The notes under the pieces: model-generated
What the model was told of the DNA's origin: nothing
Database searches by the model: none
Seen by the model: the letters and a program-made list of their open reading frames with translations, nothing else
Made by a program: the position numbers and the translations under genes
Shown: positions 19,299-54,635 of the stretch, one piece after another
Numbering within the stretch: the first letter of the stretch is position 1
Layout: every line of letters begins with the position of its first letter
Assembly: GCA_951406725.2 (NCBI GenBank)
Contig: OX597820.1
Location: 82,708,001 to 82,772,000 of the forward strand
Direction of reading: 5' to 3'
DNA from: Octopus vulgaris
Taxonomy: Eukaryota
DNA: 64,000 nucleotides

Positions 19299-20061
19299 TA
19301 AATTGATCAAAATAAAATAAAAACATGATGCGAAGGATTCAGCGGTACATATGTTTCGGGCCTTTATTAGACAGATTTATAACAATGCATAATGTATGTC
19401 TGTGGCCTTCTTCAGCCGCGCACAACAGCTTCCGCAAGGACATGTGTTACATCAAAAATTCTTGGTTGGGGATGCAAATCCTCTCATCCACGTACGACAT
19501 AATGCGGCAGCAGCATAGAATTGAAGCGTCCATCTCTTTCTTCTCTCAATGTAGAATGAGGAAAATTGGATGTTGAGGTAATGTAAATAAATAAATACAT
19601 ATATAGAGGTGAAGATGGAGGGGCGAGAGTTCGGGACGAGGGATAAAAAATGTATAAAAATTGTAAGTATAGAATAATATAAAAATGTAGAGGATAAAGA
19701 GTTGTAAGGAGATGTAAAGGGGGTATAAAGAAATATAAAGAAATGTAAATAAATGTAAAGGCATAAGGTTATAAAGTAAAAATAGAAATAGAAATAAAAA
19801 TAAAAATAAAAATAAATAGAAATAAAAGTAAAAAAATCTGATAAAACCATGATAAAAGTGTAAAAGAATGTAAAGATAAGGGATGTATAGAGGTTACGGA
19901 CCAAGCATGGTGGTCAGGAGATTGATAAAATATGTTGTGCGCGGCTGAAGAAGGCCACAGACATACATTATGCATTGTTATAAATCTGTCTAATAAAGGC
20001 CCGAAACATATGTACCGCTGAATCCTTCGCATCATGTTTTTATTTTATTTTGATCAATTTA
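19299..20061. mobile_element. Foldback element with 129-bp apparently identical inverted arms (19299-19427 and 19933-20061), probable non-autonomous PLE derivative
   Basis: Arms are reverse complements (identical ORF starts MMRRIQRYICFGP on both strands); left arm abuts (TA)n; each arm contains a hammerhead motif. Confidence 0.85.
19941..20018 (+). ncRNA. Minimal type-I hammerhead ribozyme motif (mirror copy at 19342-19419, minus strand)
   Basis: GCGG-CUGAAGA-AGGCC...GGCCC-GAAA-C(AUAU)G-UA-CCGC: stem I GCGG/CCGC, full core, palindromic CAUAUG stem III, GUA triplet. Confidence 0.8.
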
Positions 20062-20493: not shown

Positions 20494-21094
20494 TTATACA
20501 TACATACATACATACATACATACACATACACACACAGATATATATATGTATGTATGTATGTATATATTATTTAAAACAGTGTGATTCGGCCCCATGTGAC
20601 TTCAAGTTTCATGGGCCTTTAACAGAAGCATGTTGTATTCAGTCTTTAAGTTTGAACATAAAACAGGTAGATTGTTTGGGCCTGATATGTTTGGTTTATA
20701 AACCTTAGAAGTTAAATTCAACTGTTGAATACTGTGTTGTTATCAAACGTATTCAATGGTTTTTAAAGAACATATACAGTTTGTTTTTTAGCCTTTAGTT
20801 TAGTTTACCAGGAAAACATCATTTCCGGTTAGCTACCGACACATGATCTGTCTGTGTCCATAAACTGTGAGCAAGGGAGTCTACTGCCCCCTTTCTAACC
20901 TTAGCAATACTCGTAGACAAATGGTTTCTTGGTTATTTCTTTTCTTTGGTACATAACAATCACCGCACAACCTTGCTCGTAGTATATACTTTTAAAGCCA
21001 CACACAGTTGCTGATCTCGTAAAGAGAAAAACAACTTGTTTTAAATCTCTGATTGAGATCTATATAGTAAAAGTACCATATAGTAAAGAGTGTT

Positions 21095-21291
21095 TGTGAA
21101 CAGAAATATTTTTGAAATACTTTCCTTACTTCAATTAATTTTAAAAGAATTTTGAATGTGTCTTTATTCAGCTGATGCTTCATATATCAACATAAAATTT
21201 AAGGGAAAATTTTAATTTAGATCACTTTAAGCAGATAGCTTGTTATGGTAGAGTCATGACTCTTTTAAGTGGGTTGCTATGAAAAGGATTA
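21095..21291. mobile_element. Decayed piggyBac-like MITE
   Basis: Ends ...GAAAAGGA|TTAA (GGG|TTAA-like) and interrupts the 54-bp array; family recognised from memory only. Confidence 0.45.
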
Positions 21292-21794
21292 AAGCCAAAA
21301 AAAAAAAAAAATTCAGCAGTCTCTAATTATTACGACTAATCTTGCATTCCAAGTCATCAAGGAAATATAGTGGACATTAAAGAGCAGGCAGACTCTTGTT
21401 TTCAAAGTGAATTGTTAGATATCGTGGATTCAAAGATCAGAGTAACTGTGGTTGATAATAACAAATGTTATAATATATATAGCTAATTTAAATTCATGTC
21501 TTCATGTTCTCTGAAATCAACTGTTGAATATACTAAACTTTAAACACTAGATCAACTCTGGTTATAAAAATCAATGCTAAATATAGTGAATATTAAAGAC
21601 ATCTGGTGAATAGAAGAAGAATTTTTAATACCAGATTTTTTGAGGGTTTGAAGTTATCAGGTGAATGCAATTAAATAGTAGATTAAAGAATAGATTTGTT
21701 CTAATTTTGTAAAGTCAATTGATGAACATAATGATTTTAAAGATCTAGTCCATACTGTTTTTTAAACATCACTTGGGAAATATTGTGAACATAA

Positions 21795-22014
21795 ATCGTT
21801 TAGCATACAAATTACTCTATCAAATGTAATGCTTATTTAGTCACATTATTTAAAATTAATCATGCATTATCTCACAGCTTCACGATTTTGATGATGTGAC
21901 TGCTTATGTTTAGATGACATTGTAGGGTAGGTGTGAGACGCTAGATCTGACCACTTTTAACATAAAATGGATAGTTTATTTGGGTTAAATTTGGCTGCCT
22001 TAAATGCTAAAGGG
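21795..22014. mobile_element. piggyBac-like MITE
   Basis: Right end AAATGCTAAAGGG|TTAA; left end (T)CGTTTAGCAT is a degenerate inverse; related fragment at ~20650-20715. Confidence 0.7.
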
Positions 22015-22679
22015 TTAAAGACCAGATGCACTCTGGCTTTTAAAGTCATCTAATGTTAACTGTGAATATTTTACAACAGATCCACTTGTTCTGCCAAGTC
22101 AGCTGGAGAAAATAGTGTATGTCATGGAACAGACGCACTCTGGTCTTTAAAGCTAACTAGAGTCAACTGGTTAATATAGTGAACTTCAAAGACAAGACCC
22201 TGTATGGCTTTTCAAGGCAATTGATGAATATATTGGACTTTGAATAACATATACACTCTGGTTTCAATGTCAAACGGTGAATATAAGGGATTTTTAGACC
22301 AAATCCACGTGGGTATTTAATGATAATCGGTGTATATATGCACAGTAACTTTAAAGTCAAGTGCTAAATATAGTCTTATTTAAAGACTAGAAGCACACCG
22401 GTTTTTAAAAGCAACTTAAAAGTGTAAAACCACCTTGATTTTTTAAAGCAAATGATGAAAATAGTAGACTTTAAAAAGGAAATCTCCTCTGGGTATTAAG
22501 ATCAAATGATACAGATTTTCACTGAAGTCAACTTGAGCATAAAATAAACTTTAAACATGATATAAAGTCTGGTTTAAGATTTAACGTTTAAAAAAAGTGA
22601 CCAGATGCGTTCTTGTTTGTCTTCAATGTCGATTTTCCCTTTTTTAAACTTCTTCATCCATCTGTTATCTCTCATCTTT

Positions 22680-23105
22680 TCTCTCATTTACTTGTTTCAC
22701 TCATTAGAGTGCACCCTTGCCTGGGCACCACCTTGAGGAATTTTAGTTGAACAAATGAAACTCGGGATTTATTTTTTAAAAACATGGTACTTATTCTATT
22801 GATCATATCGCGAAGCCTCTAAGTTGCAGGGATGTAAATACACCAACACCAGTTGTCAAGAGTGGATGAGAGACAAGCATAGCCAAAAACACATGCTCAC
22901 ACACACATGCACACACACACATGCAAACACACATATGCACAGACACACGCACACAATTTGCTTCTTACTGTTTTCGTCTTCCAAATCCACTCACAAAGCT
23001 CTAGTTAGCCCAAGGCCAGAGGAGAAGGTAAGGTGCTACACAATGGGGCTGAACCTGGAATTATGCAGTTGGGAAGCAAACTTCTTACCATAAAACCACA
23101 CCTGA
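22680..23105 (-). mobile_element. SINE family B
   Basis: Aligns to 17690-18185. Confidence 0.85.
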
Positions 23106-24184
23106 TCTTATCAATGGTGTCATGGAAAATATAGTAGCCACCATTGACCAAATTTAATCTGGGAACTAAATTCAAATTGTGAGCATCGTAGCTTTTAAAA
23201 TCTGATCCACTCCTGTATTTTATGTAATCTAGTGTATATTGAGAATCACTTGGGTTTTTTAATTCAACTGGTGAATACAGTGCATTTTAAAAAAAGAGAT
23301 CCACACAGATTTTTAATGTCATCTAGTGAATATGTTGGACTTTAAAGACCTAATGCACTCAGGTCTTTAAAGGGAAGTGGTGAATATTATGGATTTAATG
23401 ACTAAATCCACTCTACTTTATGAATGCAATTAAAAGCCCATGGATTCTTGTATTTAAATTCAATTAGTGAATATCATAGACATCAAAGAACAGATCTCCT
23501 TTGGTTCGTAAAGCCAACTGCTGAACATGGTTTCTTTCAAAGATAAAAATCTCCTCTTATCAGTTAAGCCAACCATTGAATACATTAAATTTTAAGCATG
23601 ATATCTATTCTGGTCTGTCTAATTGAAGAATTTGTAGACATTAAAAATCATGAAAACCTTGGTTATTGAAGCTATATCTTGTATAAATGAACTTAAGATT
23701 AGAATTGTGTTCCTTAAATACCTTTAGTGAATATAATGAATTTGAAAGGTTTGGTCCACGCTGAGGTTTTGAAAACCAATGGGCAAATTTATTGGATTTA
23801 TAAGCCAGATCCACCCTGATTTTTAAAATCAAATGGAGAATATAGCGTTCTTTAATGTCCAACAACCTTCTAGTCTTCAAATTCAACAGTTGAATAGAAT
23901 GGGCATTCAAACCTGCTAATGAAGAGGATTATAAAAATGAAGTGTATTATAAAAATACACTTTAAAGTTTGTGCTTTTACATACTGTAGTTAGTAAAGGC
24001 CTGATACACTCATGTTTCAAAGACCCATCTGGTAAACATAATTAAAAAATCAGATAGATTTTGAATTTTAAAATTCAACTGTTAAACATAGTGGAATTTA
24101 AAAATAAATTATGGTCAAGTGCTGAATGAAGTGTAATTTATAGACAACTCTAGAATTTAGAAGTCATTTGGAGAGATATTTTTT

Positions 24185-24660
24185 ATCTTTTATTATTTAC
24201 TTGCTTCAGTCATGAGACTAGTCATGCTGGGGTACCCCCTTGTACAATTTTTATTCGAATGAACTGACCACAGAGCTTCTTCTTAAAGTCTGGTATTTCT
24301 TCTATTGGTCGCTTTTACCAAACTGCTAAGTTACATTGGGCATAAACACACCAACACTGGTTGTCAAGTGGTGGTGGGTGGTGGGGGACAAAGCAGGCAC
24401 AAAGACATATATACGCATGCACACACACAGACTTACACACACACCTACACACACACACACTCTATCTCTCTCACAGGAACACACACACACTTATATGATG
24501 GGCTTCTTTTAAGTTTATATTTATCAAATCCACTCAAGGCTTTGGTTGGCCTGGTGCTATATTAGAAGACATTTGCCGAAGGTGCCACATAGTGGGACTG
24601 AATGCGGAGCCATGTGGTTGGGAAGCAAACTTCATACCATACAATCACATCTGCACCTAT
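24185..24660 (-). mobile_element. SINE family B
   Basis: Aligns to 17690-18185. Confidence 0.85.
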
Positions 24661-26549
24661 GGACTTTAAAATTATAACTGTGTTCCTTAAACTCCTTTGA
24701 TTAATATAAGGGACTTGAAAGACCTGGTCCACACTAAGTTTTTATCGGATTTATAAACCAGAACCACCTTGATTTTTAAAGTCTTACGGTTGACTTTATA
24801 GACATCATTCACTCATCATCTACTCAGGTCAGTAAAGTCTATTGATGAATATAGTGGAGTTTAATGACTGATCCACTCTAAATTTTTAATAATGTCAGCT
24901 GGTGAATACCATGGACTTTAAATGACCAAATTCATGCAAGTTTCGATGTTTAATTGTTAATCTGTTCTAGTTTCTAAAGTTAATAAACAAATATGGTAGA
25001 TGTTAAAGAGCACTTGCATCCTGGTCTCTGAAGCTAAATGGCAAATATGTAAAAATATTTATACTCAGAAGGATATTATTGTGATCATTCTAGCCTTCAC
25101 ATACAGCATACCTAGTATTTTGTGCTATCGATGGTATAGTTGACATTAAATAAATAACTGGAACCAATAAAATGATGACTCACTAAAGTTTTTAAAATTA
25201 CATGTTGAACACAGATGGCCCAAAGACTAGCTCTACTCTGGGATTTAAAATAGTGGTTATAGTCACATTTTATAACCATATTCAAACTGATTTTTAAATT
25301 TAATTGTTGAATACAGTTAATTTTAAGAACAATATTCACTCTCATTTTCTATCACATGTGCATATGGTAGATGTAACAGATCTACTTCATCCTGTATAAC
25401 CAATTGGTAAGTATAATGAACCAGATTCACCCTCGTTTTGTGAAGTTATCTTGTGGATATAATGTACTTTAAAGGCCAGTCCACACTGGTGAGTACATTT
25501 GTTTCAAAAGCAATATCTCTTTTATATAAAAATCCAACAATTTCAACTCAATTTTGCAGACCAGATATATTCTGGTCAGTAAAATCTGCTAGAGAAGACA
25601 GTGGACTTTGATGACCAGTTCCAGTTTAATGTATACTGGAATTTAAAGGCAGATTCAGTCTGTTGTGGAAAGTCAACTGATAAATATAATGGAGTTTGAA
25701 GAGTAGATCTGTTCATGTTTGAAGCCAGCTGACAAATATAGTTGACATTAAATATCAAATACTCTCTGGTTTTAATCACAGCTTGTGAATATACTAAATT
25801 TTACAGACCAGATCTATTCTGGTCAGTAAAATCTGCTAGAGAAGACAGTAGACTTTGATTACCAGGTTCCTTCTACTCTTTAATGCTACCTGGTGAACTT
25901 TTAAGTTGATCAGATTCACTATGGTTTTTAACACCAAATTTTGATGAAAATTGTAAATCTAAATAACTACACCCAGTCTTGTTTTGGAAAATTCCTGGTA
26001 AATATCATGGGATTTAAAACCAGACAGAGGTTTTATGTGAACTTTAAAAAGCATATCATACATCTCAGGTATATGATACCAACTGGTGAATGTAGCAAAT
26101 GTTAATGGTAAAATCTATTCTGGATATAGCAGACTGTATTGGGCAGGATCCTTTCTGATATATGAAGTTAACTGTTGAATATTGTGGTGAACTTAACTTT
26201 TTCTTTATTACCTGATAAATATAGTCATATTAAAGACAATGAATAAGCCATAACCTGGTCAGTCGATAAGATAGAAATAAGAGCCAGTACCCTCTTAAAT
26301 TACACTATACTTTCTTAGAAAAGGTACAATGGTTCAAATGTTCCAAAGTATATTTAATTTGTGTGTAAATACAATGTGGGAATGTTTTTGGTCAAAGAAA
26401 TGTTCTACCGAGACTAACTCTGATCTTAGCAACAATTGAAGATTTATATAAAAAATTTTAACTTTCACATTAAAACCATCCGAAATGATTGCATAACTAT
26501 TCTATTATATCGGGTACAAGCACAGATAACCACAATAACTGTGTGCGAA

Positions 26550-28230
26550 TTTTGAGCGTAACGTTATCAAAGAAAAATGGAATACTTTCTACGAAAAACT
26601 CAGTGATATTAGCTGAATAAGAAAATATGAAAGAAGAAGTAATGAAGCACAACATAGCGGGCAATGGCAACGGACGATAATGGATATCACACAAAAAACC
26701 GTCAAAACACGTGCTACACAACAATACGACATAATCGCAGTAACTTAAAACAAGGGAGACACAACAACACACTTAAGTACGAATTAGGTAAACCAAATAG
26801 GACATTAATACGTGTTAATGAAAAGCCAGCTGTAAAGTTCGAGAGAGGATATCAAAATAAAAAAACTGAAGTGATAACATTCATAAAAGACTAGGAAGAT
26901 AATGTTACATCTGAGACTAGAATACCTACTTAGGTAAGTTAACTTTGCATTATAAATATTTCTAGAAGAAATAAAAGGCACAAGTATATTGGGTATGAAT
27001 AAACTAATGTACACTACACTGTGTGTTATAACTAAACTAATGGCGTAGAAATATGTGGGAAAATAAGAAAACATAAATCAGAAATTAGCGTCGAGACGAA
27101 AACTTGAACAGGAAATCAACAGAAAAAGAAAAGATATAACAATACATAACAATTGAGTGCCAGAAATATAACAAAGAATATAAAAAAAGTAAGTAAAAAA
27201 AACAACCAATGCTATATAGAAGTTTTAACATTAATGATGAACAACTGAAATAAAGAAGCAATGATTAATTTATCAGGTGAAAACGGAATTTTTAGAATAC
27301 ATCGATTTGATAAAAGAATGAAGCAAAGAAACAAAATAAAATGTTTCAGGAAGATAAAGGAAACATTTTACAGAGAGTTTAACAAAATATAACAAAATAC
27401 AAATTAGAGAACAAGAAATACTGACATTTTGAAAAAATATATTGGAAGCTGATAACAAAACATAAAACAAGAGAAATATTGAATAGTATCATGAGAAATA
27501 AGAAATATTACAGCGGAACATATAATGCAAGAGATAAAAGCAAAACGCTATTAGATGTAAGCTGGATTAGACAAAAATCTAACATTTCTGGATAAAACGT
27601 CTCCATATTTCATTCACACATTGCACCAATCTCTTAATGAGATAATAAAATGTCCATCTCAAATATTTGGGCAACAATGATCCTACCAATGAGAGCAAAA
27701 CGAGTGGCTGCAAAAACACTAAAGTAATAACTTACTTCTATTAAGAGTAAAATGTGGTATCAATGTCTAGATAGTATAATATTCTGTCCGTTAATAAAGA
27801 TATATCAGATCACAGTAAGTAGCTGACGAAGAGAAGGTCAGCTGAACATGTTTACTTGGCTGTAAAGAAATAAAATATATATGAATAATGCAGACTGGAA
27901 AACAAAATAACATTCATGCTACCTCGGTAGGTTTCGAAAAATCATACAAGCACCAAAATAATGACTTGACCACATTCTAGAGATCGCAGCCAAAATGTTC
28001 TTGAATAACAAATTACCGTCATTAACATTAGAAAGATCAGGTACTGTAAAGCGGTTTGAGATAAAAAGTTTGATAAACGTTTAAACGATGGGTTGGTCGC
28101 AGCCGAGTCATCTTTATTCAGAGATATGCTGGACGATGTCTAATCTGGAGCTAAATAACGACTCAAAGAAATGACACTGCAGATAATATAGTCTTGAATA
28201 CATTATGTTTACATAAAATACCGGACGATC
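26550..28230 (+). mobile_element. Highly decayed non-LTR retrotransposon, probably Dong/R4-like
   Basis: A-rich sense strand with fragments such as GLDK..FWIK near 27565-27600; many stops. Confidence 0.45.
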
Positions 28231-28599
28231 AAAGCTGGAATACCTGATTATTGATCTGCTCGTTCACAGGTAATCTGGGGTTAAATATCATTAAGAAATA
28301 TTGGTCGTAAGATAGCTTAACACATTCATTGATGTTTAGATGGACAATGATATGTAAATTATTTTGTCCTGTACAATCATTTTATCAAGCACAACCACGC
28401 TTAACACTGATTTAAAAATATATGTGTGACTAACTTTCATCCATCAGAAAATAGTTGAGGAAATGACGTTCTATTCCTGCCACCTCTACAATCATCACAA
28501 TTACTACCATCAATAGTTGAAAAGAGACCGAAAAGAGGAATGAAAAATATGACGTACATTTGGGGCGAATATGTAGAGGACTGTATATTATATATCTTT

Positions 28600-28959
28600 A
28601 TAAACGATGAGATACCCAGATCCTGTTACGAAGCATATGATAATATTTCAGTAAAGGAATTTAAGAAAAAACAAAACAAAAAAAGGTGGTGGGCAACTGT
28701 AATTTTGTAATTTCAAGGATAATTACTATATTTCATACACATAATTTGAAATATTAATATTTGGAGGATATAAAGTTAAGATGATTCTGCTGGATAGAAG
28801 GAAATTTAAGAAGATTGTTCTAGGAAGTGGCAATAATTTGGCAAATGTGTTATCAATAGACACCAACATATCTGGGTGATTAAGAAGTTATTTTTGCCAC
28901 CAGATGATTTGGTTTTCGGTACCAATGCACAGGACCTATGGAAGTACTATGGAAACCTG

Positions 28960-28990
<31 letters not shown>

Positions 28991-30190
28991 CATACATACA
29001 TACATACACACATACATACATACATGCATGCATGTATACATACATCGTTGTGACCAATGACTGTAGCGAGTTGATGCCTTTGACGAGAATGGCTTTTATT
29101 TTGAGATGATCAAAGATGTTTGAGTGAATAGTTTGTGTACCATTCCAGGTATGTGAACAATATAATAAAGGATGTGATTCGTAGTTGATATTGGTAGAAG
29201 CCGAGTGACGCACTAGACCTTAAATAGTTATTATAACTTAAATGGAAGCGTAACTTTTCAAAAGTAACTTTATGTGATATTAATATGATAGAACTTTTGG
29301 TCGTTTGTTTTGGGCACCATAAATTATTCTGTATTTTAGGGATTTAGCTGTGTCCTATTTATGAATAGGTAGGGTGTTGTAAAACGTTGTCTCTGTTACA
29401 TAGTAATAATTGTTCTGCTAACAGTGTTGGGCATCGCATCCAATACATAGATTTCTAGTGTAAGGTGTCAAGTTAATCGTGCAGAACATTGTCTTGGAAA
29501 AGATCAAAGGAAATTTGTTTCTGTTTAAAGGTAAGGTAAAACATATTATAATACATATTTTACACTATAGTTCATAGAAATTCAATCCAAAATTTTGTGT
29601 ACAATAGTGGCAATGTGGTTCTTATGCGAAAAACATGTTAACAATTTCGATTCCCTCGAAGGTCTTTGGGTCGAAAAAACAGTAGTAAATAACGTGGAAT
29701 AATACAATTCTGCTAGATGTGAATCTACAGATACTGTCATTGAGGGATGGACAAAAAACAAAGAATTTAGAGGTTTGGTGTTATCAATACAGCATATGAG
29801 TAGAGAATGAGGCCGACTAGGAGATACAGATGAGAATAGCACTGAACTCGACCCCTGCGTGAAGGATATAAACATACAAGGAATATGAGAGATAGGTAAG
29901 ATGAGATTCAATATAAATTAAAAAGGACGAGTCAAGGCTTACGTGACAAAGAAATTCGTTTTCCTGTAAAAGCTGATAATAACTTTTGAAAGACATGAAA
30001 ATTGATGTTCAGCTTGGCCATACAGAAATGATTCAAAGCACAGAGTGAGGGTTTTAGGTATTAACCAAAAATAAGACAAAACAGATTGCGTGTTTGGAAG
30101 TATTTAAAAATAATGATGCAAAAGGCGGATTATTTGGAGTAGATTGTTACTTATTGATTTTGACAGGATTTGATATGGTTGTTAATAAAC
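28600..30190 (+). mobile_element. Highly decayed LINE remnant (RTE-like)
   Basis: PDDLVF near 28900 (YADD-like) and weak C-terminal similarity. Confidence 0.35.
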
Positions 30191-46302: not shown

Positions 46303-46421
46303 ACTTACGGCCATAACAAGTTGAATGCATCGGTTCTCGTCCGATCACCAAAGTGAAGCAACGTCGAGCCTAGTGGGTACTTAGACGGGTGACCGCTTGG
46401 GAAATCTAGGTGTTGTAAGCA
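46303..46421 (+). rRNA. 5S rRNA-derived sequence (pseudogene or SINE3 head)
   Basis: CTTACGGCCATAAC..TCTCGTCCGATCACC.AAGT.AAGC..GTACTTAGACGGGTGACCGCTTGGGAA..GTGTTGTAAGC; single diverged copy. Confidence 0.88.
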
Positions 46422-53224: not shown

Positions 53225-54147
53225 TGTATGTATGTATGTTTGTATGTATGTATGTATGTATGTATGTATATGTGTTTGTGTATGTGTGTATGTATATATT
53301 GCAGTATAGGTTCGTAGTTACAAGTAATATAGAAAACACAATATAGAAAACAGAAACATGGATTACAGATTCGAATCGATAAATGAACTCAGAATTAAGA
53401 CAAGTAACGAGAAAAGGAAGAGATAGAACACAGTGCAACGACGATCTAGAGATACAAAGATAATACTTGAGTATTGAAGAATGTAAGAAGAAATATAATA
53501 AATATCAAATAAGATTCTAAGATACTCTAGAGCTAAAAAATAACTAATAGCACACTTGTGGTTTTAGAATGGTTCTCTTTATATATTTCAACGATCTTGC
53601 AAAGAAATGGAACATAATTCCACCTGCACTTTCTCGTGTATGAATTGATGTTAACATGATATCTGTACAGTGAACCAAAGACATATTTTCGTCATACATG
53701 TTGCGTAACTGATATAGTAAACGCAAACACACACACACACACACGCACACACACACACACACATACACACACACACTCACACAGATGTAATTGAAATGAA
53801 GTAAATTTAATTAATCTTTCAAGACAAAATTTGAACTTTGAGATAAATGTCATGAAAGTTGAATTTAATCTGATTTATTTTAATTTATATTCCGTCTTCT
53901 TGCAGTATGACTAAGCTGTCTTTTAAAACGATGGAAACCGGTAGTCTAATTCGTTAAAGTGTAAGGATTTTCGTTTTTGTGCAAAATGTGAAGAATATAA
54001 AACTAGTATTGGATGCATATTCTTAACTTTCCACACACTTCATCTGCCAACATTACAACTATTATGTAATTCCGAGCCCCCAGAAACAGCTGTCTGACCC
54101 AAATACCATGCCCTCTGCCTTTAATTTTCTGTATTTTGTAATCCATG

Positions 54148-54584
54148 TAAATTCGTTCTGTAAATATAGGAATATTCATATGCTTATACATGAACGTTCA
54201 TCTTCTGAACATTTTCAGTTTTTGTTTGTCTCTCTCTATATCACTATATATATTTATATGCATTTATATATGTATATTTTATATATGAAACCCAAACGTG
54301 TTAATTTCTTTATTTGCATTATTATCTCTATCTCTGAAACTTTGCAGAAATATATAAGTATATATATATATATATATACTTATATATTTCTGCAAAGTTT
54401 CAGAGATAGAGATAATAATGCAAATAAAGAAATTAACACGTTTGGGTTTCATATATAAAATATACATATATAAATGCATATAAATATATATAGTGATATA
54501 GAGAGAGACAAACAAAAACTGAAAATGTTCAGAAGATGAACGTTCATGTATAAGCATATGAATATTCCTATATTTACAGAACGA

Positions 54585-54589
<5 letters not shown>
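54148..54589. repeat. 442-bp apparently perfect palindrome centred on (TA)n
   Basis: The same peptide appears on both strands (ORFs 54108+ and 54279-). Confidence 0.95.

Positions 54590-54635
<46 letters not shown>

What the first reader, a model, noticed from the sequence alone, without database searches (positions are those of the whole stretch)
20570..26250. ~5-kb hidden array of ~54-bp hairpin-forming units
Seen in sequence: what looks like unique AT-rich DNA is a head-to-tail array, very roughly 70 copies after subtracting insertions. The eye-derived consensus is GGTGAATATAGTG-GACTTTAAAGACCAGA-TCCAC-TCTGGTTTTTAAAGTC-AACT. Each unit is a ~16-bp stem with a 5-nt loop plus a ~17-nt linker. 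Units are heavily diverged, yet period and orientation persist. At least one unit (23338-23371) has the altered but still pairing stem GACCT/AGGTC. Inference: this is either an old minisatellite or a structured array. If transcribed it would give a string of short hairpins (small-RNA precursors, RNA-binding-protein scaffold, or A-to-I editing substrate, which is relevant in cephalopods); as DNA it could form cruciforms or repeated protein sites. It has no variable spacers, so it is not CRISPR-like. I do not recognise it as a described repeat.
Basis: partly seen in the sequence, partly recalled or inferred. Interest (0 to 1): 0.75.

Follow-up and report, generated by a model that had tools for sequence, protein, structure and literature searches.

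The report
Fossil minisatellite from folded-back retroelement piece
This is a real but decayed run of about 60 copies of a 54-letter unit made of a short piece of an old, dispersed jumping element joined to its own mirror image; today's copies no longer fold into hairpins and change as fast as the DNA beside them, so it is likely a genomic fossil without a present function.

Summary
The array is real. It has a 54-bp period, one orientation, about 60 unit-equivalents (52 near-full) and 72% identity to its majority sequence. Five interspersed insertions break it up, and I found it at one locus only.

The hairpin exists only in the majority sequence (-24 kcal/mol). Real units average -5.8 against -5.4 for shuffles, and RNAalifold finds no shared structure. 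In two related organisms the array is syntenic but diverges no more slowly than its flank, and stems change as often as linkers.

The unit's origin is identified. All 54 bases map to an old dispersed repeat (at least 136 copies) that carries a type-I hammerhead core and often sits head-to-head, like Penelope pLTRs and retrozymes: 23 nt forward (22 match), 26 nt reversed (24 match) and a 9-nt piece from near its 3' end. Array and family are about equally decayed, and the units form a near-star.

Best reading: a fold-back of that retroelement, amplified in one burst and then left to decay. A weak excess of compensatory pairs and a weak codon-like signal remain unexplained. Earlier notes of this scan held no look-alike. 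Ordinary kind; low interest.

The parts
20712..20790 (+). two partial 54-bp units, cut off from the main array by insertions
   Evidence: E 2e-4
20808..21105 (.). insertion: ~300-bp copy of another old dispersed repeat (68 matches listed, many as tandem or inverted pairs)
21340..21792 (+). array block 1 (about 8 units)
21793..22014 (.). insertion: ~220-bp dispersed repeat; TTAA end and terminal similarity suggest a MITE (label by eye, recalled)
22015..22575 (+). array block 2 (about 10 units)
22610..23120 (.). insertion: abundant SINE-like repeat with CA tract
   Evidence: up to 12 other copies per base in the DNA fetched
23123..24104 (+). array block 3 (about 17 units; 24105-24170 is also unit-like); holds the best-folding unit of this block, 23327-23380
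24170..24655 (.). insertion: second copy of the SINE-like repeat
24660..26187 (+). array block 4 (about 25 units); holds a later 247-bp-offset duplication (about 25551-25625 and 25798-25872); 24660-24785 resembles 23680-23830
23338..23360 (+). example of the forward arm, unit columns 12-34 = donor family columns 210-232 (majority match 22 of 23)
23359..23384 (-). example of the reversed arm, unit columns 33-54 and 1-4 = donor columns 225-200 (majority match 24 of 26); overlaps the forward arm by 2 nt
23329..23337 (-). example of the linker, unit columns 3-11 = donor columns 394-386 near its 3' end (majority match 9 of 9, p about 0.01)

Best explanation
The array is a decayed minisatellite whose 54-bp unit matches a ~33-bp internal piece of an old hammerhead-bearing dispersed repeat in both orientations; it likely arose by fold-back of that element, was likely amplified in one short burst and has likely decayed without constraint since. 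Shown: the sequence match of both arms, the loss of folding in present units, neutral-level divergence in relatives, and a single locus at the sensitivity tested. Inferred: the donor is a Penelope pLTR-type or retrozyme-type non-autonomous element; the junctions formed by template switching at 2-nt microhomologies plus snap-back pairing; amplification happened while the family was active. Whether amplification was by rolling circle of a 54-bp circle or by fast slippage or unequal exchange is not resolved.
For: Donor. A 21-nt arm motif pulls a dispersed family; all 30 loci fetched share homology beyond the motif. The 12 unit bases next to the motif, which were not searched for, match the family majority 5 of 5 and 7 of 7. 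Using only the 47 of 80 copies found by other queries, the arms match 22 of 23 and 24 of 26. At the two reversed-arm mismatches the family base is still carried by 14 of 53 and 13 of 51 units, against a 10% background (p 0.0007, 0.0015). In the family the segment is single and not a hairpin, so the direction is family to array. Age. Identity to majority is A/T 0.79 and G/C 0.60 in the array, 0.82 and 0.64 in family copies biased to the best. Burst. Shared derived states are 2.07 for neighbours and 1.91 for units more than 10 apart. No constraint. Organism E differs at 65 of 848 array bases and 187 of 2980 mostly-flank bases (p 0.16); organism D at 18 of 876 and 13 of 1217 (p 0.07, array faster). 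Of 28 E differences listed for 24736-25158, 15 fall in 218 stem bases, 4 in 65 loop/linker bases and 9 in 140 bases outside units. D has 28-, 30- and 80-bp gaps; in E 356 bases are replaced by 2915 letters. Own halves fold no better than chimeric halves (-6.0 and -6.0). Base-controlled conservation is -0.008 for the core stem and +0.013 for the linker. Single locus. Two calibrated motifs recover 6 and 5 in-array hits as predicted, with 5 and 5 elsewhere against 4 and 4 control hits; none of 12 outside loci holds an array.
Against: Cells with a change on both sides of a pair are slightly in excess: 36 against 26.1 +/- 4.9 on 33 chosen units (15 of 500 shuffles; this set holds one duplicated pair), and 40 against 33 on 57 units (p 0.09). 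The other four measures are not in excess. Column conservation is uneven (chi2 138 on 50 df), more than in a SINE control (1.8 per df at lower depth). One of six reading frames shows conservative amino-acid change (p 0.003 before correcting for six frames). At forward-arm column 13 no unit keeps the family's G. The 9-nt linker match is only p about 0.01 and was noticed after the fact. No reverse transcriptase or GIY-YIG frame was linked to the donor family. No flanking remnant of the donor is significant (best p 0.01 among 32 tests). Constraint was measured on the right-hand 1.5 kb of the array only.
Confidence: 0.82

Rival explanations
1. The array is, or until recently was, a functional structured RNA or DNA element (hairpin scaffold, editing or small-RNA substrate, cruciform or protein-binding array) that was co-opted from the retroelement piece.
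For: The majority folds into a 21-bp stem. There is a mild excess of double changes. Period and orientation persist at 28% divergence. It is syntenic in organisms C, D and E.
Against: Real units fold like shuffles, 2 of 46 at or below -10 kcal/mol. No consensus structure. Divergence equals or exceeds the flank, and stems change as often as linkers. Five insertions and lineage-specific deletions are tolerated. No Rfam match in the array.
Confidence: 0.06
2. The array is the fossil of a protein-coding 18-residue repeat (54 bp = 18 codons).
For: Second-position-like columns are the most conserved (raw p 0.013). One plus-strand frame shows higher BLOSUM similarity (p 0.003-0.004) and fewer new stops (22 against 31-32; p 0.02-0.045) than simulated decay.
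Against: That frame has a stop codon in the majority of every unit. The only open frame shows no signal (p 0.33-0.47). The phase effect falls to p 0.09 once base type is controlled. Most indels are 1 nt (34 of 56). The unit is fully accounted for by an inverted donor piece.
Confidence: 0.04
3. The array was the internal repeat of a larger mobile element or viral origin-like palindrome array (for example Helitron or foldback type) that took up the donor piece, and other copies have decayed beyond detection.
For: Satellites often arise inside or from transposons (PMC12692304, passages). Array ends are hidden by a microsatellite and insertions.
Against: No second array in the genome at a sensitivity that recovers 5-6 hits per array of this age or within 100 kb either side. 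No exact hairpin motif in the viral, metagenome or prokaryote collections (exact match only). No element ends found.
Confidence: 0.08

Closest known systems
Transposon-derived minisatellites and satellite DNAs (review PMC12692304, passages read)
   Same: Tandem unit of 11-60 bp made by tandemisation of part of a mobile element; the review lists Penelope elements among sources and names inverted or palindromic motifs as aids to tandemisation.
   Different: No longer homogenised (28% from majority, against about 10% usual within arrays per the review); one locus; the unit is a fold-back composite, not a direct copy of a donor segment.
Animal non-LTR retrozymes (PMC7229834, passages; bioRxiv 10.64898/2026.07.22.740005, part 1 of 5)
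   Same: The donor family is non-coding, about 300-450 bp, AT-rich, has a type-I hammerhead core and occurs in tandems.
   Different: The array unit is 54 bp, not 150-450, and lacks the ribozyme: it begins about 7 nt past the predicted cut site. The array is not a retrozyme.
Penelope-like element pLTRs with minimal hammerheads (PMC4209133, parts 1-2 of 4; PMC8557442, passages)
   Same: The donor has the core, a G-C pair closing helix II, a short palindromic helix III, and partial tandems with inverted copies adjoining the 5' side.
   Different: No RT or GIY-YIG frame was linked to it. The repeated tail-to-tail junction of the array unit is rare in the family (1 of 71 loci).
Short fold-back inverted duplications at DNA breaks (PMC11724301, abstract only)
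   Same: 5-34-bp inverted copies formed through microhomology, the size of the arms here.
   Different: Single events in yeast, not amplified into arrays.

Membership tests
Minisatellite (decayed) | Head-to-tail non-coding units of 11-60 bp | tested here: met
   54-bp period, one orientation, about 60 units; frameshifts and stops in all frames
Transposon-derived tandem repeat | Unit homologous to part of a dispersed element | tested here: met
   22 of 23, 24 of 26 and 9 of 9 against the family majority; at least 136 dispersed matches (lower bound)
Conserved structured RNA array | Members fold into a shared structure | tested here: not met
Conserved structured RNA array | Covariation beyond chance | tested here: inconclusive
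   one of five measures at 15 of 500; p 0.09 on 57 units
Conserved structured RNA array | Slower change than neutral flank | tested here: not met
   right-hand part of the array only
Conserved structured RNA array | Transcribed and processed | not testable with these tools
   no usable RNA run was available for this stretch
Non-LTR retrozyme (the array itself) | Type-I hammerhead in each 150-450-bp monomer | tested here: not met
   unit covers donor columns 200-232 and 386-394; the core lies at 162-192
Penelope pLTR / retrozyme-type element (the donor family) | Type-I hammerhead core with helix II and palindromic short helix III | tested here: met
   present in the majority of 80 copies. Rfam HH9 core hit in 1 of 2 single copies tested, 17.9 bits, E 0.042, far below the gathering score. 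None among the 150 of 186 rows shown for 20 loci. Helix II covariation not significant (p 0.1)
Penelope pLTR / retrozyme-type element (the donor family) | Partial tandems and inverted copies at the 5' side | tested here: met
   13 of 71 loci head-to-head, 1 tail-to-tail; stricter count 9 opposite-strand and 7 same-strand second copies of 71; one family locus in the 264 kb around the array
Penelope pLTR / retrozyme-type element (the donor family) | Linked RT and GIY-YIG frame, or a known autonomous partner | tested here: inconclusive
   homology ends about 200 bp upstream and 250 bp downstream of the motif; no consistent tblastn link to 7 Penelope-like fragments from this region
Penelope pLTR / retrozyme-type element (the donor family) | Self-cleavage and circular RNA | not testable with these tools
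   bench test; the family is old and no young copy was found
CRISPR array | Unique spacers between repeats | tested here: not met
   units abut; the commonest start-to-start distances are 54, 53, 55 and 51

The most novel reading that the evidence does not exclude
The array is the fossil of one retrotransposition accident: a Penelope-type (telomerase-related) reverse transcriptase stopped just short of the ribozyme cut site, jumped to the RNA's 3' region, snapped back on its own cDNA and then copied the resulting 54-nt dumbbell some 60 times in a row. That would be a natural record of rolling-circle or reiterative synthesis on a minimal template by this enzyme class.
Probability: 0.2. Interest if true: 0.55.

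Novelty: new member of a known kind. Interest (0 to 1): 0.2.

Why it matters
As it stands it is a clean worked example of how a palindromic minisatellite is born from a retroelement and dies, and a warning that a hairpin seen in a consensus of diverged repeats records the ancestor, not a present structure. It matters more only if the same three-piece, fold-back unit design recurs at other loci or in other Penelope-type families, because that would expose a step of their poorly understood transposition cycle.

Tried and rejected
TRF found no 54-bp period, and the whole-window repeat finder was swamped by microsatellites. BLAST of 651 array bases found only the array itself. Two window-exact patterns found 1 and 3 matches, at control level.

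Rfam at gathering scores: only a 5S rRNA in the window. No RNA holder listed among 24 runs; this says nothing on expression. Reads were laid on 24650-28900 only, so the left two-thirds of the array were not compared across species.

Exact hairpin motif: 0 in viral, metagenome and prokaryote collections. The control count was high (70 against 86), so that count alone is no evidence; the family was shown by homology beyond the motif.

A protein reading of the donor's opposite strand led nowhere. Pfam gave one weak hit in 8, 7993 candidates gave none at E up to 1, and the representative search gave 4 hits, three repetitive and one 69-residue sequence that looks like a translated copy of the same repeat. 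The Tc1/mariner-end idea was dropped once the motif proved internal to the donor. A protein search with the array units themselves was not completed (one search failed on frames).

Pfam on 63 of 733 ORFs within 100 kb found only transposon domains and weak hits, so no host gene was placed; intronic against intergenic is open.

Literature searches listed no paper on this array or on a fold-back array from a Penelope-type element; Repbase and Dfam were not available. No supplements were read; those of PMC4209133 and PMC8557442 may list mollusc hammerhead or Penelope families. Earlier-findings look-ups near the place and by sequence were blank.
Full report
Setting. The window lies at G000:C7:82708001-82772000 of a 2.8-Gb genome. 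Other notes of this scan call the genome octopus; I did not test that. The region is rich in microsatellites and old repeats. No host gene was placed.

The observation. 5-mer distances peak at 53-55 bp in the three sub-blocks tested between 21340 and 26250. A circular-profile parse found 79 segments, 52 near-full, 59 unit-equivalents and 71.6% identity to the majority. All 73 model matches in the window fall in 20751-26174. Insertions break the array: a ~300-bp dispersed repeat at 20808-21105, a ~220-bp repeat at 21793-22014, two SINE-like copies, and about 125 unassigned bases at 25049-25176. The array is real and is older than these insertions.

The hairpin is ancestral only. The majority folds at -24.4 kcal/mol. 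The 46 units with at least 45 columns average -5.8 (base shuffles -5.4; halves from different units -6.0), and 2 reach -10. RNAalifold predicts no pair on 33 of the better units, and a 775-nt block has z = -0.68. On 57 units (segments under 30 columns and one duplicated pair dropped) 57.5% of stem cells pair, against 56.5% after permuting arms (p 0.18), and stem and linker are equally conserved once base type is controlled. Against this reading, double changes are a little in excess: 40 against 33 (p 0.09) and 36 against 26 (15 of 500, with a duplicated pair in the set). Occasional hairpin-templated repair or early variants spread during amplification could give this without selection (inference).

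No constraint in relatives. Contigs of four runs were laid on 24650-28900. Organism E differs at 7.7% in the array and 6.3% in the mostly-flank part; organism D at 2.1% and 1.1%. Among the 28 E differences listed for 24736-25158 (the call showed 40 of 268 rows), rates are 6.9% in stems, 6.2% in loops and linkers, and 6.4% outside units. D carries 28-, 30- and 80-bp gaps, and in E 356 bases are replaced by 2915 letters. Corrected distance from the majority (about 0.35) is roughly nine times the per-lineage distance to E; this is rough, since G/C sites are near saturation. The flank is taken as neutral: it looks like an old LINE by eye, but Pfam found nothing there.

One locus. Two degenerate motifs, calibrated to give 6 and 5 hits in this array, returned exactly those, plus 5 and 5 elsewhere against 4 and 4 control hits. 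None of 12 outside loci held an array, nor did 100 kb on either side or any other of the 137 loci fetched by then.

The donor. A 21-nt motif for one arm alone returned 86 places. All 30 fetched belong to one dispersed family of about 300-450 bp, with at least 136 matches (150 of 477 candidates scored) and no young copy among them. In the family the segment is single and unfolded. The family continues on both sides of the motif with exactly the unit's neighbouring bases, 7 of 7 and 5 of 5. From the 47 of 80 copies found without the motif, unit columns 12-34 match family columns 210-232 at 22 of 23, and columns 33-58 match the reverse of 225-200 at 24 of 26. Columns 3-11 match the reverse of 394-386, near the family's 3' end, at 9 of 9 (p about 0.01, noticed after the fact). 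The three pieces cover all 54 bases with two 2-nt overlaps. At the two reversed-arm mismatches a quarter of units still carry the family base; at the forward mismatch none does. One of 2000 shuffled units reached the single-strand alignment score, so the case rests on the unsearched flanking bases and on both strands matching, not on that score.

What the donor is. Its majority holds a type-I hammerhead core at columns 162-192, with a 5-bp helix II, a short palindromic helix III and a plausible helix I. These features match those described for metazoan and Penelope hammerheads (PMC4209133, parts 1-2 of 4 read). Rfam support is weak: one of two single copies gave an HH9 core hit at E 0.042, and none showed in the 150 of 186 rows listed for 20 loci. 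Copies cluster head-to-head in 13 of 71 loci and tail-to-tail in 1, the arrangement described for Penelope-like insertions (PMC8557442, passages). Short non-coding hammerhead repeats in animals are reported as non-autonomous Penelope derivatives (bioRxiv 10.64898/2026.07.22.740005, part 1 of 5; PMC7229834, passages). No RT or GIY-YIG frame was linked, so I say it works like a pLTR or retrozyme-type element and do not file it as a member.

How it most likely formed (inferred). Array and family are about equally decayed, so the unit came from a then-young copy. The reversed arm ends about 7 nt short of the predicted cut site. The linker's last bases can pair with the end of that arm, which would prime copying back along it and give the near-perfect forward arm. 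A second switch at a 2-nt microhomology closes the unit. Fold-back duplications of this size are documented in yeast (PMC11724301, abstract). Both loops keep one orientation in all units, which fits head-to-tail amplification of one unit, not repeated mirror doubling. Neighbouring units share hardly more derived states than distant ones, so amplification was fast relative to mutation, with two later local duplications. Rolling circle and rapid slippage both fit.

Coding rival. One of six frames shows conservative change (p 0.003 uncorrected), but it has a stop in every unit; the open frame shows nothing, and 34 of 56 indels are 1 nt. I leave the signal unexplained and give this rival 0.04.

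Verdict. A fossil, transposon-derived minisatellite: a known kind (PMC12692304, passages), with an unusually legible fold-back origin. Eight literature searches listed no description of this array. Expression is untested. Interest 0.2.

Noticed in passing
window 46303-46421 (+): Isolated full-length 5S rRNA match, 84.9 bits.
   Followed up: no
window 54145-54592: Perfect palindrome with 224-nt arms and no spacer; very young or an assembly artefact.
   Followed up: no
window 19316-19440 and 19896-20050: Near-identical inverted pair around an A-rich stretch, of the look of a young Penelope-type insertion (label recalled); no Pfam hit.
   Followed up: partly
window 20808-21105: A second old ~300-bp family whose copies elsewhere also come as tandem and inverted pairs.
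   Followed up: partly
L048-L137: Old hammerhead-core family, at least 136 matches in G000, not found in earlier notes of this scan; class not settled.
   Followed up: partly
window 26300-29000: A-skewed stretch with LINE-like words by eye; no Pfam match with stops read as X.
   Followed up: partly
L022:4795-8249 (-): Fairly intact LINE with endonuclease, RT and zf-RVT domains about 60 kb downstream of the window.
   Followed up: no
L010:5023-6516 (+), L012:4426-4884 (+), L013:5484-5789 (+): A 498-residue Ser/Thr-rich frame, a hydrophobic stretch and a Cys-spaced frame 40-75 kb upstream of the window; possibly exons of one secreted or membrane protein; no Pfam hit.
   Followed up: no
array 21340-26187: Strand-asymmetric decay: T to C 10% against A to G 5% from the majority; could reflect transcription-linked mutation or early variants at a few columns.
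   Followed up: no
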